The translations under genes and the position numbers were made by a program. Of a stretch of DNA of 15,015 bases, positions 1 to 13,333 are shown in pieces. This DNA is from an uncultured archaeon (GTDB lineage: Archaea; Asgardarchaeota; Lokiarchaeia; Sigyniarchaeales; SOKP01). Each line of letters starts with the position of its first letter. Positions within the stretch are counted from its first letter, which is position 1. The notes under the pieces were generated by a model that was given only the letters and a program-made list of their open reading frames with translations, searched no databases and had not been told where the DNA came from. The stretch covers positions 1 to 15,015 of the forward strand of contig CAYUTF010000067.1 of the NCBI GenBank assembly GCA_964447495.1, read 5' to 3'.

Positions 1-311
1 TCTTCAACATAATCATCCATATTCATAAAAAGAATTTCTATCTTTGCTGTACCTGTTAGTTCCTCTATATCTTTATCTAAATGCTTTTCTACTTGATTTA
101 ATAAACCTAATTTCAACTTTGGATCTAATTCATATTTTGAAATTAAACGATTCATCTCTTCTATGATAATATTTAAACTTAAATTCCAATCCTTATTTTC
201 TTTATATCTTGGAATAAGAATATCACTGATTATTACCTCAAAAAGTGTTTCTGGTGCTTTTTCGTCAAACTCCAATTCAAATTTTGTACTTAATTTAATA
301 GTTTCAACCAA
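1..311 (-). CDS. Hypothetical protein, N-terminal part (runs off the window edge)
   Basis: Not in the ORF track. TTG start at 311 with a GAGGT RBS at 317-321. The frame stays open to position 1: MVETIKLSTKFELEFDEKAPETLFEVIISDILIPRYKENKDWNLSLNIIIEEMNRLISKYELDPKLKLGLLNQVEKHLDKDIEELTGTAKIEILFMNMDDYVE... Confidence 0.8.
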   Translation of the reverse strand, partial: MVETIKLSTKFELEFDEKAPETLFEVIISDILIPRYKENKDWNLSLNIIIEEMNRLISKYELDPKLKLGLLNQVEKHLDKDIEELTGTAKIEILFMNMDDYVE

Positions 312-562
312 TTTAAACCTCAACTCAAAAATAAAATAAAATTATATTCTTATTAAATAATAGACTATTTTTTTTTAACTTTTTGCACTTCTATAGCAAT
401 TCATTCAATAAAAAAAAAATCTGAATCGTTTCACAATAATTTTTTCTCAAGTTATCATTAAATAAAATTAAATTAACAATCCTTCCAAAATGTATAATAG
501 TGACAACATCCATTTTAAACCCATATCTAATTAATAATTTATTTTTAATAATAGTGAGAATC

Positions 563-934
563 ATGTCAAAAACTGTTTCAGATAACCAATATCGTCAACC
601 CCTTATAAAAAAGGGCTATATTAAGATCCTTTTATCAGCATTTTTTATGTTAATTTGTGGGTTAATAATTACGTCAATAATATCTTTCGTTCCTAGAGTT
701 TTCATTGGCAACCCTGGTTACCAAGATTATCAGAACTTTGCACGAATTAGTTCAGGTATTGCAAAATTATTTATTGAAATCGGATTAGTACTTTTTTCAA
801 TTTCCTCTTTTTTAGGAGCAATATCCGATGCAAACCTTGGAGATAATGTTAAGCGAGGAATGATGATTGCTTCGGGAATATCGATATTCGGTTTAATCAT
901 TGTTTTCCTTTTCCCATTAATGTATATATATTAA
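563..934 (+). CDS. Hypothetical membrane protein (about 3 TM helices)
   Basis: Three hydrophobic stretches. The ATG at 563 (MSKTVS, preceded by GTGAG) is a likelier start than the GTG at 500. Confidence 0.75.
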   Translation: MSKTVSDNQYRQPLIKKGYIKILLSAFFMLICGLIITSIISFVPRVFIGNPGYQDYQNFARISSGIAKLFIEIGLVLFSISSFLGAISDANLGDNVKRGMMIASGISIFGLIIVFLFPLMYIY

Positions 935-1578
935 AATATTATGATTTTTAATTATTGAGCCGCATAAAGGAGTAAAATTGGATTTTGAGTATTTATAGAT
1001 TAGCAAAATATACTAGGTGACTAATAGAATTTAAATTGAAATAAAAGAGAAAGAATAACATCCTAATATAGAAATCCAATATGGAATGGGTATAGACAGA
1101 GTACAATAATTACTTTTTATTCTTCACCGAAATTACTCAAATAATAAAATCTTTTTTCTCTAAAACTCAATGATTAAAAGGAAGTAGTAAAATCGGAAAC
1201 CACGAGTAGATCAAAACTTTAAAAAGAGGAGACGTATTTATCTAATAACAGGGTTAAGGGTTGAGGTATTTAACCGATCTTCCATCGGCTTTAGGTATAA
1301 GAATATATTTTGCTATCATGGCTCCGATTTTTTTGTTATAAGTATATATTAATTGAAGTTATTTAAATATCTATCTTTTCATAGGATAAAAGGGAAAATC
1401 GATTTTGATAAGCGAAAGGGTTCTAAAAGTCAAACAATTAGCTATAATTATTAAACCAACATTTTTCTATTTTCATAAGGGTTATATGTAAATTCTAATA
1501 ATCTTAAACCTATAAAGAAATCATACTGAAAATATTGGCATAACAGTGAGATATTATTTGTATCTACATTTATATATA

Positions 1579-2406
1579 TTAATCAATTATTTTCTTCTTT
1601 ATTTTTTTGAAAATATTATAACCTAAATTTATTTTCTGTTCATTAACTAAATCAATTAGAATATTATAGATCATAAATTCTCCATACTTTTCATTAAAAC
1701 GTTTTATAATTGATTTCAGATGTTTTTTTTTGGTGATAGAATTTTTCCTACGAGTAACTATAAATGCTTCCATTTTTTTCTTTAGCGTTAATTTGATATT
1801 TTTATCATAAAATCGAGCAATTTTAAATCCAGAGAATTTTGTACAAAACATATTCCAGTTCGGAATCAGCCTAAAATTAATATCTCGATAAAAGTATGTA
1901 TTATAACCTGATTTAAAGATTCCTCTTTTCTTTTTTTTAATAACTTTGGAAAAATGCAAAGCAAACGGTTTATTAAGTCCTATCTTATTTTCCTGAACAT
2001 TCAAATTGACATAATAAACCCTCCCTCCATACATTTTATGGAGGAATTTTTCTGAAGGGCTTATTTTCTGTTCTTTAGAATGGCGTGGATATTTTTTAGA
2101 TGCAACACAATTTCCTTCTCCGTGGATAAGCCATAATACATAAATTCCCAAGTGATTATAATCGTTACTTCTTTGAATAATTTCATTTACAGAAATTTTT
2201 GAATTTTGAATTTCAACGACAATCTCCTCTCCAGACTTTAGTTTAAAATAGACATCAGCAAACCTATTCCCAAAATATTTCTCTATAGCTCTTATCGATA
2301 TTGTATTAGTATTCTCATAGATATAATCATAAATTAATTGTTTTATCGCTTTATGGTAATATGATTCAGATGAGGTACTTACTAAAGCAGTGTCTTTCAT
2401 ATTCAT
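1579..2406 (-). CDS. CoiA-like PD-(D/E)xK nuclease family protein
   Basis: ESYYH..K, then FADVY and VVEIQNS (D...E-x-Q), R+SNDY and YVLWL, which is the CoiA-like nuclease pattern. The C-terminus is basic. Confidence 0.7.
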   Translation of the reverse strand: MNMKDTALVSTSSESYYHKAIKQLIYDYIYENTNTISIRAIEKYFGNRFADVYFKLKSGEEIVVEIQNSKISVNEIIQRSNDYNHLGIYVLWLIHGEGNCVASKKYPRHSKEQKISPSEKFLHKMYGGRVYYVNLNVQENKIGLNKPFALHFSKVIKKKKRGIFKSGYNTYFYRDINFRLIPNWNMFCTKFSGFKIARFYDKNIKLTLKKKMEAFIVTRRKNSITKKKHLKSIIKRFNEKYGEFMIYNILIDLVNEQKINLGYNIFKKIKKKIID

Positions 2407-2584
2407 TCTTCAACGAGGATTTTCATATTTAAATGAATTTATGACATGTTCATAAAAAAAAGAAGACTCTTTTCGAATTTTATGAATTTTTGTATGATTT
2501 TTCTTTTATATAGATCTAAAATTATAATAATTCACTTATCTGTAGGCAATTATAAATAATTAAAAATAACTAAAGGTGAGACAT

Positions 2585-3304
2585 ATGGTTGATAAACATA
2601 GTCAAAGTTTTTTTGGGCAATCGTCTGGGATTACTCTCGTTAGTACCTCAAAAAGTAATGACTATATCTTTTTTAAATGTATAAAGAAAAAAGAGAATGG
2701 TATTTGGGAAAAACCATCGCTAAAAGAAGGAAAAACAATTAAATGCAATTTAGATGAGATTGTGATGATATTAGAGGTCCTAAGAGGAAAAAGAAAAGTA
2801 TGGAGTAGTTACCATAACTTTAATGAGAATAAGACTTCGATCTCGTTCAAGTGGGATGAGAACAGTAATGATAAGCTTTATATTAATATCGCCAATTACT
2901 CTAAAATGCTTTCATTTTCTCAAATTGAGATCTTACGAATGCTTTTACAACACCTACTTAAAGAAAAGATAATTCACGCGACAATTCCAAAGAAAAGGAG
3001 TTTTAAATCAGAAAGAGGTGCGCAGGGTAAATTAAAAGAATTTAGTGATAATGAAAATGATGATTTGCCCGTAATTATTGAAGAGAAAATTAATATGGAT
3101 GGTGAAAAAATAACAGAAGTCAATGGCTCAATTAAGGGGGAGTCAGAAAAAGCATTACTCCTAAATCTTACGAATGGAAAAGAAATGTGGTTTCCGAAAT
3201 CGGTTATCCATTCAAACTATATACCAGAGAAAGAAGTAAATCAATCTTTTAAGATTGATAGCTGGATCTTAAAGAAGAATAATATTATTGTTAAAACTAT
3301 GTAA
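2585..3304 (+). CDS. Hypothetical two-domain protein, possibly nucleic-acid binding (PC4/Whirly-like N-terminal domain, small beta-barrel C-terminal domain)
   Basis: ATG at 2585 follows an AGGTGA RBS. The N-terminal domain has a beta-beta-beta-helix repeat (KKKENGIWEKPS..KTIKCNLDEIVMILEVL and YSKMLSFSQIEILRMLL). A charged linker precedes the C-terminal ESEKALLL...EMWFPKSVI motif. The fold is an inference. Confidence 0.5.
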   Translation: MVDKHSQSFFGQSSGITLVSTSKSNDYIFFKCIKKKENGIWEKPSLKEGKTIKCNLDEIVMILEVLRGKRKVWSSYHNFNENKTSISFKWDENSNDKLYINIANYSKMLSFSQIEILRMLLQHLLKEKIIHATIPKKRSFKSERGAQGKLKEFSDNENDDLPVIIEEKINMDGEKITEVNGSIKGESEKALLLNLTNGKEMWFPKSVIHSNYIPEKEVNQSFKIDSWILKKNNIIVKTM

Positions 3305-3319
3305 ATTAAATTAAATATT

Positions 3320-4516
3320 CTATTCGAGATTTTTAATACTGGGAATGTACTTTTCATCACAAAGAATTTTAAGTTCTTTATTGTAATCAATCATTTTCTT
3401 AGCAATTTCTGGATGAGAAAGAAGTTGCAGTTCAGCTTTATCATTTCGATCCCATAAAAGATATGGAGTATCCTCATAGGGTAATAATTTTTTAACTTCA
3501 TTAATCCAACTCTCAGGTAATTCATTCTCTAGGTTTACATCAAGCATTTTTCCTAAAAATATTGTCCAAGCTCTTGGAACAACCGTCATTAAATAACCAC
3601 CTCCTCCTACTGCAATCCATTTGTTCTGACAATAATCACGAACACTGGTTCTAATTGTTTGAGCGATGTCTTTATATACTGATAAAGAGAGCCCCATTTG
3701 GGTTAAAGGGTCATCATAGTGCATGTCCACACCTAATTGGGTAAATAAGACGTCGGGAGAAAAGGTTTCTAAAATTCTTGGAACACAATATCGAAATAAC
3801 TTTAAAAACATTTTATTGCTTGTACCCGGAAGTAATGGGAAATTAATAGAAGAACCCTTTCCAGCGCCTTCTCCTGTCTCATTTGTGCTTCCACTTCCTG
3901 GAAATAAAAACTTTCCACTTTGGTGAAAAGATATGGTCAGAACCCTTGGATCATCATAAAAAATCCATTGTACACCATCCCCATGATGACAATCTATATC
4001 TAAATAAGCGATTCTGATATTTTTTTGTAGCGTCTTGAGATATTTTATTGCAACAGCAATGTCGTTAAAAATACAAAATCCAGATGCTCTATCTTTCAAT
4101 GCATGGTGAAGACCTCCAGCAGGATTAAATGCTATTGCGATATTATTATCATTCCAGACCATATCTGCTGCCATTATACTTGCTCCACAAACTAACGCTG
4201 ATGCTTCATACATACCCTTAAAGATGGGATTATCTCCTGGTCCTAAACCGTATACAAATGGAGAAATATTTGGTTCCCTTGGATTGATGCTTAGCTTTTC
4301 TACGGCATTTACATATTCGAGAGAATGAACGCGTAATATTTCTTCTTTGGACGCTGGTTTAGGCGTTCTAATTTCAAGCGATTTATTTCTTAGTAATCCT
4401 AATTTTTCCATTAAGCTATATGTCAGTTGTAATCTTAGGGGTCTAAGTGGATGGTCTTGACCAAAATTATAATCTTGATATTTATCTGTATAAATTAATC
4501 CAACTTTGTCCACCAT
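3320..4516 (-). CDS. acuC: Zn-dependent deacetylase, HDAC class I / AcuC family
   Basis: HPLRPLRL, GGLHHA...ASGFC, YLDIDCHHGDGVQ, SFHQSG..LFPGSG, QLGVDMHYDDPL and GGGGY motifs. Confidence 0.92.
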   Translation of the reverse strand: MVDKVGLIYTDKYQDYNFGQDHPLRPLRLQLTYSLMEKLGLLRNKSLEIRTPKPASKEEILRVHSLEYVNAVEKLSINPREPNISPFVYGLGPGDNPIFKGMYEASALVCGASIMAADMVWNDNNIAIAFNPAGGLHHALKDRASGFCIFNDIAVAIKYLKTLQKNIRIAYLDIDCHHGDGVQWIFYDDPRVLTISFHQSGKFLFPGSGSTNETGEGAGKGSSINFPLLPGTSNKMFLKLFRYCVPRILETFSPDVLFTQLGVDMHYDDPLTQMGLSLSVYKDIAQTIRTSVRDYCQNKWIAVGGGGYLMTVVPRAWTIFLGKMLDVNLENELPESWINEVKKLLPYEDTPYLLWDRNDKAELQLLSHPEIAKKMIDYNKELKILCDEKYIPSIKNLE

Positions 4517-4721
4517 AATAATATTAAGAATACTAAATCCTATTAATTTTTTTTAAGTTGTTCTAATAAGTGATTTAAGCTAAAAACCTATATTTTCTTA
4601 TTTCTTTATCATGAGTTTAGACTATTGCTAAAATACAAACAATTATATTATTTCAATATCATATAAAAAAATAAAGAAATACATTAATAGATTATCGTAA
4701 ACTACTTTTCGGAATGAGATA

Positions 4722-5276
4722 ATGAGTCAACGATTTAAAAATTTTGCAGCAAGAGTTGCGAAAGATAACGAATTCAAGCCACTTAAAAACCAGCTGTTAA
4801 ATTATCTAAAAAAAGAAAGTCAGAACAAGTATAAAAATTATCCAAGGCTCATAGAGTTGATGAAGAAATATTGGCCAAAATATAAAGAGGGTTCACGGAT
4901 ATCATATCTTTTAAAAGATCATTACGAAGAGATTTTTTATTTCTATCTTAATACTATTTTCCCCTTTCGGAAAAGAGGTCTCTCTTTTTTAAATCCAGAA
5001 GCACCTACTCCTGTTGATTTTAAGCTGGAATATCGCTATAGATATAATTCATACGAGATTCAAACAATCCAGAAATTAATGGGAGAAATGAATCTTGAAG
5101 GAAAAATTGAAGCGATTTTAAAAAGATTATTGATATTTGCGGTAAGTTCATTTAGCCCCATGATAGAAGAGATTTTTAAAAGACCATTTGCATTTCAATT
5201 TTCAAGTATTGATGCCCATCGATTAGATAATGGAGAATGGGATGTAATTGCGATAATCTCTGCGCGTGAACAATAA
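4722..5276 (+). CDS. Hypothetical protein
   Basis: 184-aa ORF filling the gap between neighbours. No recognisable motif. Confidence 0.7.
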   Translation: MSQRFKNFAARVAKDNEFKPLKNQLLNYLKKESQNKYKNYPRLIELMKKYWPKYKEGSRISYLLKDHYEEIFYFYLNTIFPFRKRGLSFLNPEAPTPVDFKLEYRYRYNSYEIQTIQKLMGEMNLEGKIEAILKRLLIFAVSSFSPMIEEIFKRPFAFQFSSIDAHRLDNGEWDVIAIISAREQ

Positions 5277-5294
5277 AAATTAGAGAAAATAGGG

Positions 5295-5723
5295 TTATTT
5301 AGTTAAATATGATCCTAAATCCATCATCTCACCATCCCCAATCTTCACCTGGATCTTTCCTTTAACTCCTTTAATTTTACGTTCCAGATAGATGATAACA
5401 TCTAATGGAATTCTTCTAGGAATTCCTCCTTGTCGTCTAATTATAGAAATTAACAGGTCTATATTTTGGATTACATCAGGACTGATTAATTCATTATAAA
5501 TTCCTTGAAAAACACCTGGTTCTTCAGTTCGCAATTTGTTTAAATAATTATAGGCATCAGGGAATAATACAATTTGTAATACATAATTGATTTTTTCTGC
5601 AATACTTATTTGCTTTTGTTGAGAATTTTCCTTAAGTTTTTGAGCATCCATGATAGCTCTCATCTTTCGTAATTTAATCTTCTCTAATTCATGTTCATCA
5701 TATTTCTCTTCTTTATCATTCAT
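5295..5723 (-). CDS. PDCD5/TFAR19-like DNA-binding protein (divergent)
   Basis: DEHELEKIKLRKMRAI...QQ...VLQIVLFPDAYNYLNKLRTEEP resembles the PDCD5 pattern (ELxxIRxxRxxEL...LxxILxxEARxRLxxIxxxxP). Confidence 0.65.
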   Translation of the reverse strand: MNDKEEKYDEHELEKIKLRKMRAIMDAQKLKENSQQKQISIAEKINYVLQIVLFPDAYNYLNKLRTEEPGVFQGIYNELISPDVIQNIDLLISIIRRQGGIPRRIPLDVIIYLERKIKGVKGKIQVKIGDGEMMDLGSYLTK

Positions 5724-5754
5724 ATTTTATCCCTTAATTCAGGTTTTTAACAAT

Positions 5755-6681
5755 TTAACAATTTACAATTTTTAAAGCAATTCCTAATGCCCTTATTCCA
5801 TCATCTAAACTAACATTAAGCTCCTTATCATAAAGAAAATGTAATATTTCTCTTTTTAATGGCTCATCTTGTCGAAGGGGTGTATAAATAATATCTTTTG
5901 TTATCGGCCACTCACCTTGTAGATCAATTCCCTTACGGATAGTAATGGTCTGACCGATAAAGTCGATTGATAGCCCGCCATTTTCCCCATTAATATACAT
6001 TCCTCTAAATTTAGAAGGAGTTAACCAGTTGGATTCGATTTCTCCAATTGCTGTTCCAAAATCTAATATAATAAAGGCAGCGTCAGCATGAGCCGTATCT
6101 TTATAACACTTTTTAACCCCAAACGCATTCACTATTTTATTTTTTCCCATAACTCTCTCTTGTAGATAAATATCATGAATTGATAAATCAAGGATAACAC
6201 CCATGTCCCAATTTCGTTTTGGATACAAGCCAATTCGTTTAGAAGCAATTGAAATGATTTCTCCTATTTCGGGGAGATAAGTTAATAATTTTTCAAAAGC
6301 TGGATTAAATAATTCGATAAAACCGGGCATAATTCTAACATTTTCATATTTTTTCAGTTCAATTAACTCCTCAATATTTAAGGCCATAGGCTTTTCCATT
6401 AACGTATCTATTCCCGCCTCAACACACTTCTTTGCGATGAGAGGAATCTGTTTTGGGGGAGTTACTACACTTACAGCCTCAATATCCTCATTTTTAATTA
6501 AATCATCAACACTAGTATAAGTATTGACATTTTCATATTCTTCAGCAGATAAATTTACACGTTCTTCATTTGTATCGCAGATTGCTATAAGTTTAGAGAG
6601 ATTATGAAAATTTCTTATGTGTGCTCTGCCAAACCAGCCAGCTCCAATAACAGCAGTCTTCTTCTTTTTCATTAATCTCAT
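5755..6681 (-). CDS. Gfo/Idh/MocA family NAD(P)-dependent oxidoreductase
   Basis: AVIGAGWFG..H Rossmann motif, VVTPP, MEKPMA, GFIELFNP, GVILDLSIHD and SNWLTP. The start may be at the second Met. Confidence 0.92.
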   Translation of the reverse strand: MRLMKKKKTAVIGAGWFGRAHIRNFHNLSKLIAICDTNEERVNLSAEEYENVNTYTSVDDLIKNEDIEAVSVVTPPKQIPLIAKKCVEAGIDTLMEKPMALNIEELIELKKYENVRIMPGFIELFNPAFEKLLTYLPEIGEIISIASKRIGLYPKRNWDMGVILDLSIHDIYLQERVMGKNKIVNAFGVKKCYKDTAHADAAFIILDFGTAIGEIESNWLTPSKFRGMYINGENGGLSIDFIGQTITIRKGIDLQGEWPITKDIIYTPLRQDEPLKREILHFLYDKELNVSLDDGIRALGIALKIVNC

Positions 6682-7012
6682 TCTAACCTATAATATTTAT
6701 TAATAATAGAGCCTACAATAAGAATTTTATTAACTTCATATAAGGAGTTAAACTTTATTGGTAAGCATTGTCTAAATGAAAAATAAAATGTATCATGAAA
6801 ATTATTATGAAAATGTTAACTTTTTTGTTTCTCTTTTTAATCTCTACTATAACTTTTTCTTATAGGTTGTTTTACAATAAGCGAAATAGCACTATTAAGA
6901 AGGAAAAAGAAAAAATACTATCACTTTTTTTTTCTTTTGTCTGATTTTCAATACTCACAAATTAAAGAGAAAGTAAAAAAAAAATCTGAATAAATACTTT
7001 AGAAAATTCAAA

Positions 7013-7321
7013 TTACTCCTGATTCTTTTTACGGTAAGAGATTAACTTGAATACAGCGAAAATTATGACAACTGATAGACTAATTCCTATAATAGCAGCT
7101 ATATAATTATTTTCAATCCAACTTAGGAATGGAATCCATGGTGAGGCAAGATTTTCTAGCCATGATTCTCCGTTACTATCAATAATAACCCTCTCTAATC
7201 CATCAGGATCCTCAGAAAGAATACCCAAAGGATAACCAATGGCAATCATTACTAATAGGATAACCAAAACGAGTAATAAAGAGGCAAATATTTTCCTATG
7301 ACTTCTAAAGTTTAATTTCAA
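7013..7321 (-). CDS. Ni/Co ECF transporter component NikN/CbiN-like (PDGLE domain)
   Basis: SEDPDGLE motif between two TM helices. Directly abuts the cbiM/nikM gene. Confidence 0.85.
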   Translation of the reverse strand: MKLNFRSHRKIFASLLLVLVILLVMIAIGYPLGILSEDPDGLERVIIDSNGESWLENLASPWIPFLSWIENNYIAAIIGISLSVVIIFAVFKLISYRKKNQE

Positions 7322-7993
7322 TTAGCTCACCCCTAAATAAGATTCAGTCAATATCATATTTGGTTTCACTTTGTAAATGTAGAATATTATTAATCCAGAA
7401 ATTAACGCTTCTCCTATACCAATGAAAATGTGCCAAAATACCATTGCAGAGATAGAAATTTCCATAGGGATAGCTCCAGCTAATCCAATTTCAACTCCAC
7501 AAACGAAAGCAGCGAATAAGATTGCAATATAAGACCCTATTGCTGTTGAAATCGTCACTTTTAATTCTTTTTTCATCGAAGTTTTATTTAAAATTCTAAT
7601 TAAAGCTAGTACTATGTAGAATCCTATTATTCCTCCAATTATTCCCATATTAAATGCATTAGCTCCAAGAGCTGTAATCCCGCCATCTCCAAAAAAGCTC
7701 TGAACAACTAATATGAGAAATAAAACAATTACTGAAGCCCATGGACCAAGAATAACTGCTACTAATGTCCCACCGACTAAATGACCTGAAGTACCTCCGG
7801 GTATGGGATAATTAACAAATTGAAATGCAAATATCACCGCAGCTAAAACTCCAATATATGGGATAATCTTGTCAGATTCTTCGTTCTGAAATACTTTTTT
7901 CAATCGAAAATATGCTAAAATTAATACTGCAACAATTATCACCCAAAGGGAAATTGTAGTTATAGGATCAAGTAACCCATCTGGTAAATGCAT
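7322..7993 (-). CDS. cbiM: Ni/Co ECF transporter substrate-binding component CbiM/NikM
   Basis: N-terminal metal-binding MHLPDG, PGGTSGH, GDGGITALGAN and HIFIGIGEA. Confidence 0.92.
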   Translation of the reverse strand: MHLPDGLLDPITTISLWVIIVAVLILAYFRLKKVFQNEESDKIIPYIGVLAAVIFAFQFVNYPIPGGTSGHLVGGTLVAVILGPWASVIVLFLILVVQSFFGDGGITALGANAFNMGIIGGIIGFYIVLALIRILNKTSMKKELKVTISTAIGSYIAILFAAFVCGVEIGLAGAIPMEISISAMVFWHIFIGIGEALISGLIIFYIYKVKPNMILTESYLGVS

Positions 7994-8188
7994 ATTTTTT
8001 CCTCTATTTTATAATCGTTTAATTTTATTACAATCAAATATTATTTCTTTATAATTTAGTATTACTTTTAAAGAATATGAATAATCTGGAAGATAGTATG
8101 AAGTCAGAATCACTGAACTCTCTATTATATATAATTTATAATTGAAACCCAAAATATAATATCATAACTATTACAGGAGAAACATTTA

Positions 8189-8995
8189 ATGAAAACAGAT
8201 TTGCCTTTCAAACATGAAAATCAAAAAAACTTTTTCAATAAAATTCATCCGCTAACTCGTTTTATTTTCCCATTCATACTAATTATCCCTACATTATTTC
8301 AAAATGATATTTTTTTAATTCTTACAGTATTAATTATTGTACTCATACTAAGTCTAGTTTTACGACTACAATTGATTGAAGTCCTTTCACGCATTAAATT
8401 CATTGTTGGATTTTTACTTTTGATATTAATCTTTATACCTTTTTATGTAGGAGAAAATATAGTGTTCAATGTCAACATTGGTATACAAATAATTATTTAT
8501 CAAGAAGGTATAGAATTGATGATTCTTATTTTTCTTCGAGTGTTCACAGCAGCACTAACATTTGTAGTTTTTTTCACGTCCCTAACGTATTCTGAATTTA
8601 TCGAAGCACTTATCACTATCCGAATTATTCCTTCAATATTAGTTGGTAGCATAATTATCATGTTACACTATATTCCTATTTTAGCTTCTTCAAATAAGAA
8701 AGTGCTTGAAGCTCAAGAACTAAGAGGGAAAAATATGTCGAAATATTCAACAAAATTGAAAACACATGCCTTTATCATGGGGAAAAATCTCATAAATAAT
8801 ATGGAACGAAGTGAAAGGTTATATGAAAGCCTAAAAATGCGCGGTTTTACTGGAAAAATTACATTTATCCCTCCCAGATTCAGGATTATCGATTATTTAA
8901 TCATAATCGGGACAATATTATTTATGATAATTATCGCCTATGTAATTAATCTACAATTACTTTTTCAAGAGGTTATTTTCTTATTTTTGCCGTAG
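8189..8995 (+). CDS. cbiQ: ECF transporter transmembrane component CbiQ/EcfT
   Basis: IHPLTR start, several TM helices, and the AQELRG and SLKMRGF coupling motifs. Confidence 0.9.
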   Translation: MKTDLPFKHENQKNFFNKIHPLTRFIFPFILIIPTLFQNDIFLILTVLIIVLILSLVLRLQLIEVLSRIKFIVGFLLLILIFIPFYVGENIVFNVNIGIQIIIYQEGIELMILIFLRVFTAALTFVVFFTSLTYSEFIEALITIRIIPSILVGSIIIMLHYIPILASSNKKVLEAQELRGKNMSKYSTKLKTHAFIMGKNLINNMERSERLYESLKMRGFTGKITFIPPRFRIIDYLIIIGTILFMIIIAYVINLQLLFQEVIFLFLP

Positions 8996-9729
8996 AAGTA
9001 GAAGATTTAGAATTCGCATATGATTCCGGATTTAAACTCAATAAATTATCTTTTAAAGTAGAAAAGAATTCAATCTATGCTCTAATTGGTAATAATGGAT
9101 CTGGTAAAACCACTATTTTGAGGTTGTTAGTTGGTCTTTTAAAAGCAGAAGTCGGAACAATCAAACTATTCAATGAAGAACTACAGTTGAACAAAAAAAA
9201 ATTATGGGAAATGCGACAATCAATCGGATTCTTATTCCAAAATCCAGATGATCAATTATTTGCTCCAACCGTTAGGGAGGACATAAGTTTTGGGGCACGG
9301 AACTTAAAATTGGAAGAAAAAGAAGTGAATCAGAGAGTTAAATGGGCATTAGAAGCTGTTAAACTCTCTGAATATGAAAATTTCTCACCATTTAACCTAT
9401 CTTGGGGACAGAGAAAAAGAGCTGCTTTGGCAGGTTTACTAGTTCTAAAACCAAAACTGCTTATCTTAGATGAACCTTTTGCTAACCTTGACTTTAAATC
9501 CATTTATAATCATTTAGAGATTCTGGAAAATTTACGGAAAGAAATTGATCTCACCATCATGTTTACAACACATAATCTTTTCTTTGTCGAACATTGGGCA
9601 AAAAAAATGCTATTTATTAATGATGGAAAGGCTATTTTCGAAGGAGACCCTCATGAAGGTTTAAATAATCCCAATGTAAAAACCCTATTAAGCTCTTATG
9701 ATGAAATTCTTAAGCTCATTCAAGAATAA
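8983..9729 (+). CDS. cbiO: ECF transporter ATPase CbiO/EcfA (true start lies upstream of the track's 9118 and appears non-canonical)
   Basis: The frame is open from 8950 and encodes IFAVEVEDLEFAY...ALIGNNGSGKTT (Walker A) upstream of 9118, then FQNPDDQ, LSWGQRKR, LILDEP and TTH. A GAGGT RBS sits at 8969-8973 and an ATT codon at 8983. Confidence 0.85.
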   Translation: MFAVEVEDLEFAYDSGFKLNKLSFKVEKNSIYALIGNNGSGKTTILRLLVGLLKAEVGTIKLFNEELQLNKKKLWEMRQSIGFLFQNPDDQLFAPTVREDISFGARNLKLEEKEVNQRVKWALEAVKLSEYENFSPFNLSWGQRKRAALAGLLVLKPKLLILDEPFANLDFKSIYNHLEILENLRKEIDLTIMFTTHNLFFVEHWAKKMLFINDGKAIFEGDPHEGLNNPNVKTLLSSYDEILKLIQE

Positions 9730-9772
9730 GGTTTGTAGGTTTCTAAGTAATTGAAGATCAAAAAGGTAGTAT

Positions 9773-9782
9773 AAAAAGAAAA
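9773..9782 (-). terminator. Oligo-U terminator candidate after the second tRNA-Tyr copy
   Basis: Minus strand reads TTTTCTTTTT just downstream of the acceptor-stem copy. Confidence 0.45.
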
Positions 9783-9785
9783 TAG

Positions 9786-9909
9786 TCCCCTCCGCCGGCT
9801 AGTCCATCATAACTCAAGCATTATGATTTTTGATCCAGAGACATCTCGGTTTCGGCTGACGTATTGTCATCGGCATCATGCCTTAATACGCGATTATATC
9901 TACAGTTGA
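9786..9909 (-). pseudogene. Degenerate 3' copy of tRNA-Tyr(GUA), from the anticodon arm to the discriminator, with an anticodon-intron homolog and a 29-nt T-loop insertion
   Basis: Aligns to 10741-10843: tcccctccgccggct, ttgatccag.gacatctcggt, ttcggctgacg and ctacag are shared. It has no recognisable 5' acceptor strand or D-arm and no CCA. It carries an 8-nt deletion at the 3' splice site, G49>U, and anticodon-stem GG>AA. Weak similarity may extend to about 9933. Confidence 0.85.
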
Positions 9910-9937
9910 ATTATATATATTGCAAGTGGTCTCAAAT

Positions 9938-10651
9938 TTAATTCATAAATATTAGCAATTTACCATATTTACCTATTCCTTTATTCCTTTTATCAGTAAA
10001 GATATTTATCAGGCTTAGGTTAATTTGCTTAAGGTCTCTCCTAATTTTTTGCATATTAAAAATCCATTTCATTGGTTTGACTATATAAATAAATTTGGCA
10101 ACCTCCTCTCTAGAACCAATAGATAATCTATATGAACTTTGTTTGCTCTTATCATTAATTCTTAATTTCGAAGTTTTTATTTTTAATCCATCGCAAATTT
10201 CTTTGAAATTCATTACTAATGGGACTGAGCTACTTTTAAAATTTATATTTATTGATTTATTTGACTTATTAACAAAAATCGAACCATCAGTATCAATTAA
10301 TCCTCTTAAACAGGAAACTGAATAATCTTTATTATTTTTTATCCATAAAGGAATCCCAACTTGATTTTTGACTTTATTTCCCGCATGCAATCCTTTAGTT
10401 TGCAAAAATTTTACAATTTCCTTATTAAAGTATCTCAATTCTAAGTTTTTGCTATCATTTTTGATATTTACCTTTGGTTTTATTTTGAAAATTCTAAATA
10501 GAAGATTCTCAACATAATCAACATATCTGGGACTGTCTATTCTATTAATAGAAATATCTAATATATAATGCCTACCAGAATCATAAATATTGCCATCACC
10601 TAAAATAATTCCTATAAGTTCAGCAAAGTAGATACCTTCTCTGACTTCCAT
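9938..10651 (-). CDS. Free-standing two-motif LAGLIDADG (DOD-type) homing endonuclease
   Basis: Motif 1 is FAELIGIILGDG and motif 2 is CLRGLIDTDG, both with the acidic catalytic residue. The GNKVK...IPLWI linker is typical. No intein splicing residues are visible. Confidence 0.9.
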   Translation of the reverse strand: MEVREGIYFAELIGIILGDGNIYDSGRHYILDISINRIDSPRYVDYVENLLFRIFKIKPKVNIKNDSKNLELRYFNKEIVKFLQTKGLHAGNKVKNQVGIPLWIKNNKDYSVSCLRGLIDTDGSIFVNKSNKSININFKSSSVPLVMNFKEICDGLKIKTSKLRINDKSKQSSYRLSIGSREEVAKFIYIVKPMKWIFNMQKIRRDLKQINLSLINIFTDKRNKGIGKYGKLLIFMN

Positions 10652-10776
10652 AATAATTGAAATTTCAAACGAGTTAAAAATTAATACTCTCTAAAAGTTA
10701 ATAGATTTATCAATTATCGAATAGTATAATAAGGTAGTGGTCCCCTCCGCCGGCTTTGATCCAGCGACATCTCGGT

Positions 10777-10833
10777 ACCTGCGTTTCGGCTGACGCAAAG
10801 TCATCGACAGAGTGTCTCAATGCGCGAAAAACT
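10777..10833 (-). other. 57-nt canonical (37/38) tRNA intron with a BHB motif
   Basis: TCGG[CTGT]AG|A-GTTT...AAAC[GCAG]GT|A-CCGA gives a 4-bp central helix, two 3-nt bulges and flanking helices. Confidence 0.92.
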
Positions 10834-10843
10834 CTACAGCCGA

Positions 10844-10873
10844 TTGAGTCATTTAAAAACAAATTTTAAAAGT
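10844..10873 (-). other. 30-nt non-canonical (27/28) tRNA intron with a relaxed BHB
   Basis: [GAGC]AC|A...TTTAAAA-loop-TTTTAAA...[ACTC]AA|T has 3 of 4 central pairs. Removing it restores the CTCGG/CCGAG anticodon stem. Confidence 0.85.
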
Positions 10874-10922
10874 GTGCTCTTCCAGGCTGAGCTAGGAGGG
10901 GATGATAACTTTTATTGTTATA

Positions 10923-10930
10923 TTTTTAAA
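10923..10930 (-). promoter_or_regulatory. TATA box candidate for tRNA-Tyr
   Basis: Minus-strand TTTAAAAA about 22-29 nt upstream of the tRNA 5' end. The AT-rich background limits certainty. Confidence 0.5.
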
Positions 10931-11189
10931 TTTACGAATTAATATAATTTTTACGATTTTTGGACCTCTCTTCCTTTCTATATAGAATTTTAACCTATAA
11001 AACCCACATTTTTCAATAATACAATCTTCTCACTTTTATTAATATGTTCTAATACATATGTGAAAAACTCAAATTATCACAATATTTTTTAAAGAAAACT
11101 CAAACTAGTTATGTAATAAAAAATTTTAATACACATTATTTTTATTAAGATTACATTCTCAATATCAAAACAATGGAGTAGAATTTGTA

Positions 11190-11699
11190 ATGAGAGAAGA
11201 AACTGATTATACTGAGGCAATTGAAGCGTATAAGGACGATGAATACGTAATTATCGAGCCGTGGGGCAGAAGTATTGACCATTTACGGCTTACTATCATA
11301 GGAAAAGAGGGTACTCCTTACGGAAAAGGAAGATTTGTGTTTGAAATCAAATTCCCAGAAAACTATCCGTTCCAACCGCCCTATGCTTACGCAGTAACCC
11401 TCATGTGGCATCCAAACATTGATTCTTCCATCCCACCCGGCAAGTTAAATATTTGTCTTGATTTAATTAATCCTGACTTAGTCGGTAAAGTAGATGCCTC
11501 CACTGGCGCTTCTGGTTGGACACCATCAAAAACACTTACAAATATTATTGAAGCCTTGAAAGGGATGATGCATGTCGAGCCTCCCTTCTTTAATCCGGGA
11601 GATCCATTAAATCACGAAGCGGGAGAACAATATTTCAGAGCTCTAAAGAAGTTTGAAGCCAAGGCAGAATCTTGGACTAAGAAATATGCCTGTGATTAA
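11190..11699 (+). CDS. Ubiquitin-conjugating enzyme E2 (UBC fold)
   Basis: GTPYGKG.F, FPENYPFQPP, WHPNI, catalytic Cys in NICLD, GWTP, DPLNHEA and WTKKYA. GGAG RBS upstream. Confidence 0.95.
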   Translation: MREETDYTEAIEAYKDDEYVIIEPWGRSIDHLRLTIIGKEGTPYGKGRFVFEIKFPENYPFQPPYAYAVTLMWHPNIDSSIPPGKLNICLDLINPDLVGKVDASTGASGWTPSKTLTNIIEALKGMMHVEPPFFNPGDPLNHEAGEQYFRALKKFEAKAESWTKKYACD

Positions 11700-11918
11700 G
11701 GGAGATTAAAGAGTTTTTTATTTACTTCTTTTTATTTTAATATAATTAATATATATTGGTATCTTTAACTCTATTTGCTGAAAAAGTCTATAGATGTTAC
11801 TGATTAATTTGATCTGGAATGTTAAAAATTCCAATTTCACAAAAAGAATTATAACTAAAACTTAATTTTAATTTAAAATTATGAAATATGATCATAATTG
11901 AGAACTAATTGAAATAAC

Positions 11919-12530
11919 ATGAGTAAAGAATTTAAGTTCTTAAAAAAAAAAAAAGTTATTATCTTTGACTTAGATGGCACTGTTGTGAATTTAACTGCAG
12001 ATTGGCCCACCTTGAAGAATATATTAAGAGAACGGTATAATCAATTATATGATGATTCTTGTGAGTTTCGAAGTATGTCCGCATGTTTGAGTGAAATCTT
12101 AGAAAAAGAGGATGAAGAAGTCCTCCAAAATTTTTTTGATATAATCCGGACATTTGAGATGAAAAATATCCATGAAACGACTCCAATTGACGAAATTGTC
12201 TACTTTATTAAACATAAAGAGCATTTTGGTATAAAGAGGGAGATTAAACTTGCAATCTTATCCCTCAATACCCGAGTGACTATAAAAAAGTCCTTAAAAT
12301 TAGCAGAACTTGAGGACCGATTTGATCTAATTATTGGGAGAGAAGATGTAAGGCGATGGAAACCGGAACCTGAAGGCTTAATTAAAATTAAAGAATATTT
12401 CGGCGTTAAAGAACGGGATATGATTTTTTTTGGAGATTTAGAGAATGATATAAAAGCAGGGAGAAGTGCTGGAATCGATGCATATTACATTGATGTGCTT
12501 ATAAATCTTGTAAAGAACTATATAAATTAG
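11919..12530 (+). CDS. HAD superfamily hydrolase (phosphoglycolate phosphatase-like)
   Basis: IFDLDGT, LSLN, KPEP, FFGD..ND and AG motifs. Confidence 0.9.
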   Translation: MSKEFKFLKKKKVIIFDLDGTVVNLTADWPTLKNILRERYNQLYDDSCEFRSMSACLSEILEKEDEEVLQNFFDIIRTFEMKNIHETTPIDEIVYFIKHKEHFGIKREIKLAILSLNTRVTIKKSLKLAELEDRFDLIIGREDVRRWKPEPEGLIKIKEYFGVKERDMIFFGDLENDIKAGRSAGIDAYYIDVLINLVKNYIN

Positions 12531-12577
12531 TATATTAATTCTAAATAAAATAGTCATATACTCCTTTTGATATTACT

Positions 12578-13333
12578 ATGATACGTTTTTGGGAATGGTT
12601 AAGGAAAGTTTTTCCGTGGTTTGTTAGATATTATAATCGTTTTGAACTGCAGGGCTTAAAAAATTTGCCAAAGAAGGGAAGTGCGATTATAGCCCCAAAT
12701 CACTCTGGAGGTTTAGATTATGATAATTTCACGTTAATGAGCGCTTTAGACCAATTCAAGTCATCCAATCCACAACGAAAAAGAATCTGGTTGTGTTATT
12801 GGGATTATTGGTCCATTGGAGATAATCCATGGTCTAAATGGGTTCAAAAATTCTCACCAATCCCAATTAGTCTCGAAGGAAAGGGGATTCCTTATAAATT
12901 AGTGGATAAACTTGTGGAGAAAGGAGAGCTATTAGCAATTATGCCAGAAGGCCATTCTGCAGCGATATATGAAGGATATCGGCTCTGGAAGTTTTATCCG
13001 GGTGTAATTCAACTCCACTTGCGATATAAAATCCCAATTATTCCAACTGCAAGTATTGGTTTTGTCACGACATCTCCTATGATAACCAATCGCTACAAAC
13101 CTAAAAAAGTGCCTCCATGGGATAAAGAACTTATGGTACCCTTAATATTACCGAAAAAACTCATCTTTCATTTTGGAAAACCTCTCATGTTTGAGGAATA
13201 TTTTGATAAGGAAGTTTCTAAAAATGAAATGTATGAATTAGCAAGCAAAGTTAGAATTGAAGTAAAAAAGCTGATTTCAAACTATTATAAAGATGTAAGT
13301 TGGACTCATCCTTATGGAATAAAGAGAAAATAG
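12578..13333 (+). CDS. Lysophospholipid/glycerolipid acyltransferase (PlsC/LPLAT superfamily, MGAT-like)
   Basis: IIAPNHSGGLDYD, IMPEG, IPIIP and FHFGKP motifs. Confidence 0.85.
   Translation: MIRFWEWLRKVFPWFVRYYNRFELQGLKNLPKKGSAIIAPNHSGGLDYDNFTLMSALDQFKSSNPQRKRIWLCYWDYWSIGDNPWSKWVQKFSPIPISLEGKGIPYKLVDKLVEKGELLAIMPEGHSAAIYEGYRLWKFYPGVIQLHLRYKIPIIPTASIGFVTTSPMITNRYKPKKVPPWDKELMVPLILPKKLIFHFGKPLMFEEYFDKEVSKNEMYELASKVRIEVKKLISNYYKDVSWTHPYGIKRK

What the first reader, a model, noticed from the sequence alone, without database searches (positions are those of the whole stretch)
10777..10843. Anticodon intron folds into a cis-acting, K-turn-containing H/ACA-like pocket aimed at the tRNA's own U35
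Seen (minus-strand RNA): intron CAGCCGA (10792-10786) is perfectly complementary to exon UCGGCUG (nt 28-34), ending just before U35 (10836). U35-A36 stay unpaired and GAG-uuu-UUC closes the other side. Above this lie the stem GCGCA/UGCGU and a K-turn (GA-GACA-cuc-UGUC-GAU-GA). The second copy covaries at each helix: GACA/UGUC becomes GGCA/UGCC, GCGCA/UGCGU becomes GCGUAUU/AAUACGU, and GAG/UUC becomes GAU/AUC, while the guide is invariant. Known: pseudouridine-35 is characteristic of tRNA-Tyr(GUA) and intron-dependent in eukaryotes, and archaeal H/ACA guides bind L7Ae at K-turns. From memory, a similar cis motif was proposed for Sulfolobales pre-tRNA-Tyr. Inference: this fold excludes the BHB fold, suggesting a modify-then-splice switch in an Asgard lineage. 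Caveat: 14 nt past the pocket the triplet is GUA, not ACA.
Basis: partly seen in the sequence, partly recalled or inferred. Interest (0 to 1): 0.75.

Follow-up and report, generated by a model that had tools for sequence, protein, structure and literature searches.

The report
K-turn guide-like module in tRNA-Tyr intron
The anticodon intron of this archaeon's tyrosine tRNA gene holds a conserved kinked hairpin that folds against the tRNA's own anticodon exactly as a pseudouridine guide RNA holds its target, a layout not found described in the papers searched.

Summary
Window 10901-10738 (minus strand) is a tRNA-Tyr(GUA) gene with two introns. Its 57-nt intron at 37/38 holds a K-turn hairpin flanked by UUC and CAGCCGA, which pair with G37-A-G and U28-G34 and leave U35-A36 unpaired.

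A covariance model finds one such element per genome in 121 of 151 genomes of the class. Eight more K-turn or K-loop versions were found in other families of the phylum. Covariation is strong: 89.8% of cells paired against 27-44% in slid controls.

The 3' strand runs a fixed 10 layers from the GA pairs to the junction in 84 of 88 sequences. This matches the published 10-layer rule for productive archaeal H/ACA guides.

- Only CAG(C) of the "guide" is conserved.
- The K-turn hairpin itself fits the canonical bulge-helix-bulge (BHB) splicing fold; only the two short guide helices exclude it.
- The Sulfolobales precedent acts in trans.
- The "second copy" is a 5'-truncated fragment behind a LAGLIDADG homing-endonuclease gene.
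- Pus7 is present and looks intact in 153 of 161 genomes.
- There is no lower stem and no ACA box.

Best reading (about 0.45): a cis-acting, atypical H/ACA-like module for pseudouridine-35. This is untested.

The parts
10738..10901 (-). tRNA-Tyr(GUA) gene, copy 1, with encoded CCA. Exons are 10901-10874, 10843-10834 and 10776-10738.
   Evidence: Hand fold of the sequence. aragorn -i gives the same ends. Alignment to intron-poorer relatives.
10844..10873 (-). Intron 1, 30 nt, between nt 27 and 28. The exact cut may slide by a base or two.
   Evidence: Present in G000 and G025 and absent from G032, where GAGCAC is followed directly by TCGG.
10777..10833 (-). Intron 2, 57 nt, at the canonical 37/38 position. 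It holds the K-turn module.
   Evidence: Hand fold gives a canonical hBHBh' motif: 5' bulge AG|A, helix CUGU/GCAG, 3' bulge GU|A, and helix GUUUU/GAAAC. Its energy is -15.2 kcal/mol.
10826..10834 (-). Mini-helix B. G37-A-G pairs with U-U-C over a UUU loop. This is the '5' guide' paired to the exon-intron junction, and the 5' splice site lies inside it.
   Evidence: Covariation: the +1/-2 pair is AU 75, UA 6, GC 1, UG 1, other 3; the +2/-3 pair is UA 54, AU 8, GU 3, UG 3, GC 2, CG 1, other 15, of 87 distinct sequences. Variants include GGG/CCC, GUCA/UGAC and GUUU/AAAC.
10835..10836 (-). U35 (10836) and A36 (10835). These are the only unpaired nucleotides at the three-way junction.
   Evidence: No nucleotide lies between CGU and CAG in 87 of 88 aligned sequences.
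10793..10825 (-). K-turn hairpin. In order: non-canonical (NC) stem GCGCAUU, then GA, C stem GACA-cuc-UGUC, bulge GAU, GA, and NC strand CUUUGCGU.
   Evidence: Parsed with 7-nt and 8-nt NC strands in 82 of 84 introns, and L3 is U in 84 of 84. All 4 C-stem pairs and 5 of 7 NC pairs show changes on both sides.
10786..10792 (-). CAGCCGA, the '3' guide'. CAG pairs with C32-U33-G34 and CCGA pairs with U28-G31, in competition with the true 3' strand of the anticodon stem.
10777..10787 (-). 3' strand of the BHB fold: GAAAC (the h' helix), GCAG (the central helix) and GU of the 3' bulge.
   Evidence: Hand fold. Energy. Absent from copy 2 and from 57 of 84 relatives that have only a 6-nt linker.
9938..10651 (-). 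LAGLIDADG homing-endonuclease gene (237 aa) between the two copies.
   Evidence: Pfam PF14528, E 2.4e-12. A homologue with 48% identity sits in the same position in G101.
9786..9905 (-). Copy 2, a 5'-truncated tRNA-Tyr fragment running from nt 32 to nt 73. It has its own K-turn intron (hairpin 9891-9859, CAGCCGA 9858-9852), an insert in the T loop and no CCA.
   Evidence: The covariance model scores it 74.7 bits.

Best explanation
The 37/38 intron of pre-tRNA-Tyr carries a minimal H/ACA-like guide that acts on its own transcript.

Proposed steps:
1. L7Ae binds the K-turn.
2. The nucleotides directly 5' of the hairpin (N-U-C) pair with G37 and the first two intron bases.
3. The nucleotides directly 3' of the hairpin (CAG, mostly CAGCCG) pair with C32-G34, and often with C29-G34.
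4. This leaves U35-A36 unpaired at the foot of a stem of fixed length, where Cbf5-Nop10-Gar1 could convert U35 to pseudouridine.
5. The fold buries the 5' splice site and often takes the anticodon-stem strand. The RNA must therefore refold into the bulge-helix-bulge form before the splicing endonuclease can cut. The order would be modify first, splice second.

Shown here: the fold, its conservation and covariation, the fixed stem length, the mutual exclusion with the BHB fold, and the presence of all four H/ACA protein genes.

Inferred only: L7Ae binding, Cbf5 action, pseudouridine at position 35, and the order of events.
For: 1. Conservation. Covariance model R1 hits 121 of 151 genomes of the class: f1 107/126, f2 8/13, f4 2/3, f5 1/2, f6 1/3, f7 1/2. 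There is one hit per genome except in G000, G064 and G101. Of 15 hits outside the class, 8 are tRNA-Tyr introns with a K-turn or K-loop.

2. Covariation.
- In A1 (MAFFT, 80 sequences), 92.2% of cells pair against 25-43% when the partner is slid. Ten of 17 pairs change on both sides. The covariation score is 0.245 against 0.125, reached by 0 of 500 shuffles.
- In A3 (88 sequences, including ones not picked by my pattern), 89.8% pair against 27-44%. The score is 0.375 against 0.161, reached by 0 of 500 shuffles.
- The 5' guide covaries with intron bases +1 and +2, so its partner is the pre-tRNA itself.

3. Geometry.
- The 3' strand has 3+2+8 nt (L1-L3, GA, NC strand) in 84 of 88 sequences. That is 10 layers from the closing pair to the GA pairs.
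- The 5' strand gives 9 layers in 74 and 10 in 10 of 88.
- Published rule: productive archaeal H/ACA folds have 10 stacked layers, sometimes reached by stacking a bulged base (PMC4652768, passages).
- The guide arms abut the stem, and exactly U plus one nucleotide is unpaired, as described for H/ACA substrates (PMC11077068, passages).

4. Precedents (passages read).
- H/ACA RNAs without a lower stem or ACA work in vivo and in vitro, also with Pyrococcus proteins.
- Cbf5 modifies uridines in their own 5' arms.
- sR115/Sso1 guides pseudouridine-35 of pre-tRNA-Tyr by pairing across the intron (PMC11077068, PMC2651775).

5. Cbf5, Nop10, Gar1 and two L7Ae-family genes are present in the genome.

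6. The minimum-free-energy fold of the GC-rich homologue L161 is exactly this junction. In copy 1 the junction fold and the BHB fold compute to -15.7 and -15.2 kcal/mol.
Against: - Pus7/TruD is present in 153 of 161 genomes of the class. In all 45 sequences aligned, the catalytic Asp and the N-terminal basic residue are kept. This is unlike the Sulfolobales enzymes, whose defect goes together with the guide RNA (PMC2651775). An RNA guide would therefore be redundant, unless Pus7 does not reach U35 here.
- There is no lower stem.
- No ACA lies 14-16 nt from the stem (0 of 84). An ANA triplet occurs at those offsets in only 3, 5 and 3 of 84.
- The guide helices are short: 3 bp and 3-7 bp. Mini-helix B fails at +1/-2 in 3 and at +2/-3 in 15 of 87 sequences.
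- CAG and its partner never co-vary, because C32-U33-G34 is fixed. That helix rests on conservation alone.
- The 5' strand of the stem counts 9 layers, not 10, in most sequences.
- Four of four genomes of family f8 have a tRNA-Tyr intron without a K-turn.
- The nearest-neighbour minimum-free-energy fold of copy 1 (-21.1 kcal/mol) is a third fold.
- No RNA data could be had.
Confidence: 0.45

Rival explanations
1. A folding or splicing scaffold. L7Ae bound to the K-turn stiffens the intron and helps an AU-rich pre-tRNA with a poor splice motif reach, or be held off from, the form the endonuclease cuts. No base is modified.
For: - Only 16 of 84 introns have a fully paired central helix in the canonical register.
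- 57 of 84 have just a 6-nt linker, whose best BHB has a U33 mismatch and no h' helix. Help with folding is therefore plausible.
- The hairpin is compatible with the BHB of copy 1.
- Asgard archaea are reported to have the broad-specificity (alpha-beta)2 endonuclease (PMC5829648, passages).
Against: - It does not explain why the stem length is fixed, why the arms abut the stem, or why exactly U35-A36 is left free.
- It does not explain why mini-helix B buries the 5' splice site.
- I know of no case where L7Ae serves tRNA splicing (recall; searches gave none).
- Whether other tRNA introns of the genome carry such hairpins was not tested.
Confidence: 0.22
2. Presentation to the stand-alone enzyme. 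The junction displays U35-A36 for Pus7, as in eukaryotes, where pseudouridine-35 needs the intron. The K-turn is architecture only.
For: - Pus7 is ubiquitous and looks intact.
- The exon sequence G-C-U-G-U-A-G fits the Pus7 consensus quoted in PMC2651775 (passages).
- Intron dependence in yeast and plants is cited there.
Against: - Pyrococcus Pus7 needs no intron (PMC2651775, passages).
- Pus7 is not known to use K-turns (recall).
- The fixed distance from the K-turn would have no role.
Confidence: 0.12
3. The excised intron works afterwards, probably as a circle. It would be a stable K-turn small RNA acting in trans, either on other pre-tRNA-Tyr molecules or as an L7Ae-binding RNA. The junction seen in cis would be only its target pairing.
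For: - Stable or functional RNAs are encoded in archaeal tRNA introns (N. equitans tRNA-Met intron, PMC3491384, passages).
- Joining the intron ends would close the two arms into a loop.
- Copy 2 keeps the hairpin although it cannot make a tRNA.
Against: - The 5' arm covaries with intron bases +1 and +2. The target is therefore the unspliced pre-tRNA-Tyr in any case.
- There is no expression data.
- Copy 2 occurs in only 2 genomes.
Confidence: 0.08

Closest known systems
Sso1 / sR115 family of H/ACA sRNAs of Sulfolobales and Aeropyrum pernix, which guide pseudouridine-35 in pre-tRNA-Tyr (PMC2651775, PMC11077068; passages read)
   Same: The target is the same: U35 of the intron-containing pre-tRNA-Tyr. 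The guide pairs with both the anticodon stem-loop and the intron. U35 and A36 are left unpaired. A K-turn sits in the upper stem.
   Different: Those are separate genes that act in trans. [quoted passage not shown] Here the module lies inside the intron of its own target, has no lower stem and no ACA, and Pus7 looks intact.
Atypical H/ACA-like sRNAs of Pyrobaculum and Sulfolobus islandicus (PMC4652768, PMC11077068; passages read)
   Same: A single K-turn hairpin with about 10 layers to the GA pairs. It is flanked by two free guide arms, with no lower stem and often no ANA box. Cbf5 can also modify uridines in their own 5' arm.
   Different: Those are stand-alone small RNAs aimed at rRNA or tRNA in trans, with longer arms. 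Here the arms are 3 nt and 3-7 nt, and the substrate is tied to the 5' arm by a 2-7 nt loop.
Box C/D guide in the intron of euryarchaeal pre-tRNA-Trp (recalled, not read here). A C/D sRNA in the N. equitans tRNA-Met intron (PMC3491384, abstract and passages).
   Same: An L7Ae-binding guide RNA housed in a tRNA intron and directed at the tRNA's own anticodon region. The guide pairing competes with the splice motif.
   Different: Those are box C/D RNAs for 2'-O-methylation, with two box pairs and 10-12 nt unpaired guides. Here there is a single K-turn whose flanking strands pair with each other, which is not a C/D layout.
Intron-dependent pseudouridine-35 formation by Pus7 in eukaryotic pre-tRNA-Tyr (as cited in PMC2651775)
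   Same: A tRNA-Tyr intron at 37/38 whose presence is tied to modification of U35.
   Different: The eukaryotic reaction is done by a protein-only enzyme. No K-turn is involved.
Canonical archaeal bulge-helix-bulge tRNA intron
   Same: Copy 1 forms a textbook hBHBh' at 37/38.
   Different: Most relatives (68 of 84) lack a fully paired central helix. All carry an extra conserved fold that hides the 5' splice site.

Membership tests
Archaeal H/ACA guide RNA (classic) | K-turn or K-loop in the upper stem | tested here: met
   - The bulged strand reads NNU-GA in 84 of 84 introns.
- The non-bulged strand reads GA in 25, AA in 57 and other in 2 of 84.
- K-loop forms occur in family f10.
- The motif is defined from recall. 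L7Ae binding was not tested.
Archaeal H/ACA guide RNA (classic) | 10 stacked layers from the pocket-closing pair to the GA pairs (PMC4652768) | tested here: met
   The 3' strand has 8+2 nt in 84 of 88 sequences. The 5' strand has 7+2 in 74 and 8+2 in 10 of 88. So 10 layers are reached on one strand, with one extra base, in most sequences.
Archaeal H/ACA guide RNA (classic) | Bipartite guide next to the upper stem that pairs with the sequences flanking the target U plus one unpaired nucleotide | tested here: met
   N-U-C pairs with G37,+1,+2, and CAG(CCG) pairs with (C29-)C32-G34. U35-A36 is free. The pairing is in cis and the helices are short.
Archaeal H/ACA guide RNA (classic) | Lower stem closing the pocket | tested here: not met
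   No helix joins the regions outside the two arms. The 5' arm is joined to the substrate by a 2-7 nt loop.
Archaeal H/ACA guide RNA (classic) | ACA (ANA) box 14-16 nt 3' of the upper stem | tested here: not met
   ACA occurs in 0 of 84 at offsets 14-16. ANA occurs in 3, 5 and 3 of 84 at those offsets. Copy 1 has GUA there.
Archaeal H/ACA guide RNA (classic) | Pseudouridine at the predicted target, dependent on Cbf5 | not testable with these tools
   No RNA run holds the locus. Cbf5, Nop10, Gar1 and L7Ae genes are present.
Atypical H/ACA-like sRNA (Pyrobaculum, S. islandicus) | A single K-turn hairpin with free 5' and 3' guide arms, no lower stem and no obligatory ACA | tested here: met
   It differs in being part of an intron and in acting on its own transcript.
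Box C/D sRNA | C (RUGAUGA) and D (CUGA) boxes, plus C'/D', with unpaired 10-12 nt guides | tested here: not met
   There is one K-turn only. The strands next to it pair with each other. Rfam gives no C/D hit above chance: the best is 12.8 bits, E 6.9.
Canonical BHB tRNA intron at 37/38 | Two 3-nt bulges around a 4-bp helix, flanked by helices | tested here: met
   - Copy 1 fits: AG|A, CUGU/GCAG, GU|A, the anticodon stem and GUUUU/GAAAC.
- Copy 2 and 68 of 84 relatives do not have a fully paired central helix.
Any Rfam family | Match at gathering score | tested here: not met
   There are 0 matches in the window. Only two chance-level matches appear at E up to 10 in 9700-11000.

The most novel reading that the evidence does not exclude
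In this archaeal class and several sister families, pre-tRNA-Tyr guides its own pseudouridylation. A minimal H/ACA module without lower stem or ACA, built into the 37/38 intron, recruits L7Ae-Cbf5-Nop10-Gar1 to U35. Only then does the RNA switch to the splice-competent fold.

The lineage is probably Asgard, but I could not confirm the taxonomy. If it is, this RNA-guided, intron-borne step could be the ancestral reason why pseudouridine-35 depends on the intron, and why the tRNA-Tyr intron is kept, in eukaryotes.
Probability: 0.25. Interest if true: 0.9.

Novelty: new variant of a known kind. Interest (0 to 1): 0.72.

Why it matters
RNA-guided pseudouridylation is known only with guides that act in trans. 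The one known guide housed in a tRNA intron and aimed at its own tRNA is a box C/D methylation guide (recalled, not read here).

A conserved, intron-borne, self-directed H/ACA-like module would be:
- the first cis-acting pseudouridine guide;
- the smallest natural H/ACA-type unit;
- a built-in order of events, with modification before splicing.

It would also link the archaeal RNA-guided route to pseudouridine-35 with the long-known but unexplained intron dependence of that modification in eukaryotic tRNA-Tyr.

Even if Cbf5 plays no part, this is an undescribed structured RNA element. It is present once per genome in most genomes of a whole class, and standard tRNA and Rfam annotation does not report it.

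Tried and rejected
- **Expression.** The look-up of sequencing runs listed no RNA holder. Transcription, splice junctions, circular intron and pseudouridine could not be examined. The runs laid are DNA contigs. They only show that other assemblies bridge copy 2 to the endonuclease gene (X2, 9600-10666) and the endonuclease gene to copy 1 (X3, 10597-11100).
- **De novo scan for K-turn hairpins.** I scanned the genome to find bona fide H/ACA RNAs or K-turns in other tRNA introns. The scan gave 1620 hits against 1283 in the reversed-sequence control. The 98 best were mostly inside coding sequence. My strict descriptor did not even recover the tRNA-Tyr hairpins, so I dropped it. Whether other introns carry K-turns remains untested.
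- **BLAST of the gene against relatives.** It found only 11 of 61 genomes and was replaced by a pattern search and a covariance model.
- **Split-tRNA reading of copy 2.** Rejected, because no second 5' half exists in the genome.
- **Box C/D reading.** Rejected (see the membership test).
- **Compensation for a defective Pus7, as in Sulfolobales.** Not supported.
- **A splice-competent fold for the 6-nt-linker introns.** I found only a BHB with a U33 mismatch and no h' helix. How these are spliced remains unresolved.
- **Earlier findings.** The search of earlier findings gave nothing.

Full report
**What is in the window**

On the minus strand, 10901-10738 is a tRNA-Tyr(GUA) gene. It has the acceptor stem CCCCUCC/GGAGGGG, a D arm, the anticodon stem C-UCGG/CCGAG, the loop CUGUAGA, a T arm and an encoded CCA. 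Two introns interrupt it.

- A 30-nt insert lies between nt 27 and 28 (10873-10844). It is defined by comparison with G032, which lacks it.
- A 57-nt intron lies at 37/38 (10833-10777).

Default ARAGORN and Rfam at gathering score report nothing. aragorn -i finds the same ends but calls the gene Phe. The genome has 31.3% G+C, and many of its tRNA genes carry introns.

**Two folds of intron 2**

By hand, copy 1 forms a textbook hBHBh' splice motif. Its parts are the anticodon stem, the 3' bulge GU|A, the central helix C32-U35/GCAG, the 5' bulge AG|A and the helix GUUUU/GAAAC. The K-turn hairpin sits inside this motif and is compatible with it.

They use the same nucleotides as the BHB. The two folds compute to -15.2 (BHB) and -15.7 kcal/mol (junction). 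The unconstrained minimum (-21.1) is a third fold with no comparative support.

**Conservation**

A pattern taken from the two copies matched 102 of 161 genomes of the class. I fetched the places and obtained 84 distinct genuine introns plus one spurious match, which I dropped (L028). By eye, all 84 lie in tRNA-Tyr genes.

A covariance model built from 80 of them hit 121 of 151 genomes of the class. There was one hit per genome except in G000, G064 and G101. Among genomes at least 90% complete and at most 5% contaminated, 35 of 40 had a hit.

The model also recovered variants that my pattern had excluded:
- stem base GCA/UGU, ACG/CGU or GC/GC instead of GCG/CGU;
- CAA or CGG instead of CAG, in one sequence each.

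A draw of 151 genomes of the phylum gave 40 with a hit. Of the 15 hits outside the class that I inspected:
- 8 are tRNA-Tyr introns with a K-turn or K-loop (families f9, f10 four times, f19 twice, f32);
- 4 (family f8) are tRNA-Tyr introns without a K-turn;
- 3 (family f12) are not tRNA genes.

**Covariation**

On the MAFFT alignment A1, 92.2% of cells pair, against 25-43% when the partner column is slid. Ten of 17 pairs change on both sides. No shuffle of 500 reaches the covariation score.

On A3, 89.8% pair against 27-44%, and the score is 0.375 against 0.161. A3 has 88 sequences including the pattern-free ones. It is fitted to the model, so it leans toward the structure.

The mini-helix next to the 5' splice site covaries. 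Observed forms are GAU/AUC, GAG/UUC, GAA/UUC, GU/AC, GUA/UAC, GUUU/AAAC, GUCA/UGAC and GGG/CCC. The partner of the 5' arm is therefore the exon-intron junction of the same pre-tRNA.

The CUG/CAG helix cannot covary, because the anticodon loop is fixed.

**Geometry**

The hairpin is strikingly constant.
- The 5' NC strand has 7 nt and the 3' NC strand 8 nt in 82 of 84 introns.
- In the wider set, the strand lengths are 9 and 13 (3 bulge + GA + 8) in 74 of 88, and 10 and 13 in 8 of 88.
- No base lies between the stem and CAG in 87 of 88.
- The non-bulged strand reads GA in 25 and AA in 57 of 84, and L3 is always U.

Published analysis of archaeal H/ACA RNAs found that productive guides have 10 stacked layers between the pocket-closing pair and the GA pairs, sometimes by stacking a bulged base. 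It also found that the H/ACA-like RNAs of Pyrobaculum lack the lower stem and in part the ANA box (PMC4652768, passages).

The S. islandicus study showed the following (PMC11077068, passages):
- such atypical RNAs guide pseudouridylation in vivo and in vitro;
- Cbf5 modifies uridines in their own 5' arms;
- guide duplexes of 3-10 bp flank the target U and one unpaired nucleotide;
- the classic sR115 guides pseudouridine-35 of pre-tRNA-Tyr by pairing across the intron.

The junction found here leaves exactly U35-A36 unpaired between a 5' arm and a 3' arm that abut a 10-layer K-turn stem. This is that geometry, realised within one molecule.

**What does not fit**

- There is no lower stem and no ACA.
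After CAG come CCG (59), CUG (11) and UCG (1), which can all pair with C29-G31. In 13 of 84 the triplet cannot pair.
- Pus7/TruD is present and intact in G000 and matched in 153 of 161 genomes of the class.
- In 45 sequences aligned, the catalytic Asp and the N-terminal basic residue are kept in all. I equate that residue with the motif IIIa lysine of PMC2651775 by alignment and recall, not from the paper's figure. The pair after the Asp varies, for example KR, KC, KV, HR and NH.
- The Sulfolobales logic of a dead Pus7 rescued by a guide therefore does not apply.

**Splicing**

Only 16 of 84 introns have a fully paired central helix in the canonical register. In 57 of 84 the linker is just 6 nt, mostly CCGAAA. 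The best BHB for these has a U33 mismatch and no h' helix.

Family f8 has GCGG at the same place, which pairs fully. This supports that register.

Asgard archaea are reported to carry the broad-specificity (alpha-beta)2 endonuclease (PMC5829648, passages). How the majority form is cut remains open.

**The second copy**

Copy 2 (9905-9786) starts at nt 32 and has no CCA. It has a T-loop insert like many genes of the genus, and its 6-nt-linker intron is typical of the genus. No second 5' half exists in the genome.

Between the copies lies a LAGLIDADG homing-endonuclease gene at 9938-10651 (PF14528, E 2.4e-12). G101, of another genus, has the same layout: tRNA-Tyr, a homologue with 48% identity, then a 3' fragment starting near nt 32 whose anticodon loop has decayed to UUUUAGA.

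Homologues of the endonuclease occur in 47 of 161 genomes. By contig number, they lie next to tRNA-Tyr only in G000 and G101. G025 has the copy-1 allele (96% identity) without the endonuclease.

My reading is inference. An endonuclease-linked allele replaced the resident gene from about nt 32 onward and pushed the resident 3' part downstream. The compensatory differences between the copies then reflect two functional lineages, not selection on copy 2 in place.

**Verdict**

The element is real, conserved and structured. It is absent from Rfam. It was not found in the literature searched:
-;
- the Asgard tRNA-intron preprint 10.64898/2026.10.13.758758 has none of the terms Tyr, K-turn, kink, L7Ae, pseudouridine or ACA;
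- bioRxiv supplements could not be seen.

It works like an atypical H/ACA guide turned on its own transcript. It fails two defining features of classic H/ACA RNAs, so I do not file it as a member of that family. Function is untested.

I could not verify the taxonomy.

Noticed in passing
window 9938-10651 (-), with 9786-9905 (-) and 10738-10901 (-); L172 (G101:C18:57300-59300): A free-standing LAGLIDADG homing-endonuclease gene sits between a complete tRNA-Tyr gene and a 3' fragment of tRNA-Tyr that starts near nt 32. The same layout, with an endonuclease 48% identical, occurs in a genome of another genus. It looks like an endonuclease-linked tRNA allele that displaced the resident 3' part.
   Followed up: partly
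window 11190-11699 (+): A 169-aa open reading frame matches the ubiquitin-conjugating enzyme family (PF00179, E 3.7e-25). This is a eukaryote-like gene, and it lies right next to the tRNA-Tyr locus.
   Followed up: no
L006, L026, L032, L035, L036, L039, L048-L053 and others (relatives' tRNA-Tyr genes): tRNA-Tyr genes of relatives carry further inserts at varying places: the T loop, the variable region, the D arm and the acceptor stem. One gene can have up to three or four intervening sequences. The set differs between close relatives, while the 37/38 K-turn intron is constant.
   Followed up: no
window 10754-10760 (-), the T loop of copy 1: The T loop reads AUCAAAG, with A instead of U at position 54. 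Several relatives share A54 or C54. This is unusual for a position that is normally U and is modified.
   Followed up: no
G000 contig C80, about 10-13035: aragorn -i lists 16 intron-free tRNA genes packed on the minus strand of one contig. This is unlike the rest of the genome and may be a mobile element, a virus or contamination.
   Followed up: no
L231, L233, L234, L235 (family f8, genomes of 1.3-1.4 Mb): These small-genome relatives keep a tRNA-Tyr intron ending CAGC(G/A)GAAA|CCGAG but have a plain hairpin instead of the K-turn. They are a natural control lineage for any functional test.
   Followed up: partly
G000:C15:28156-28898: The Cbf5 gene (TruB_N match at C15:28557-28898) starts about 300 nt downstream of an intron-containing tRNA-Lys gene called by aragorn (28156-28256).
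   Followed up: no
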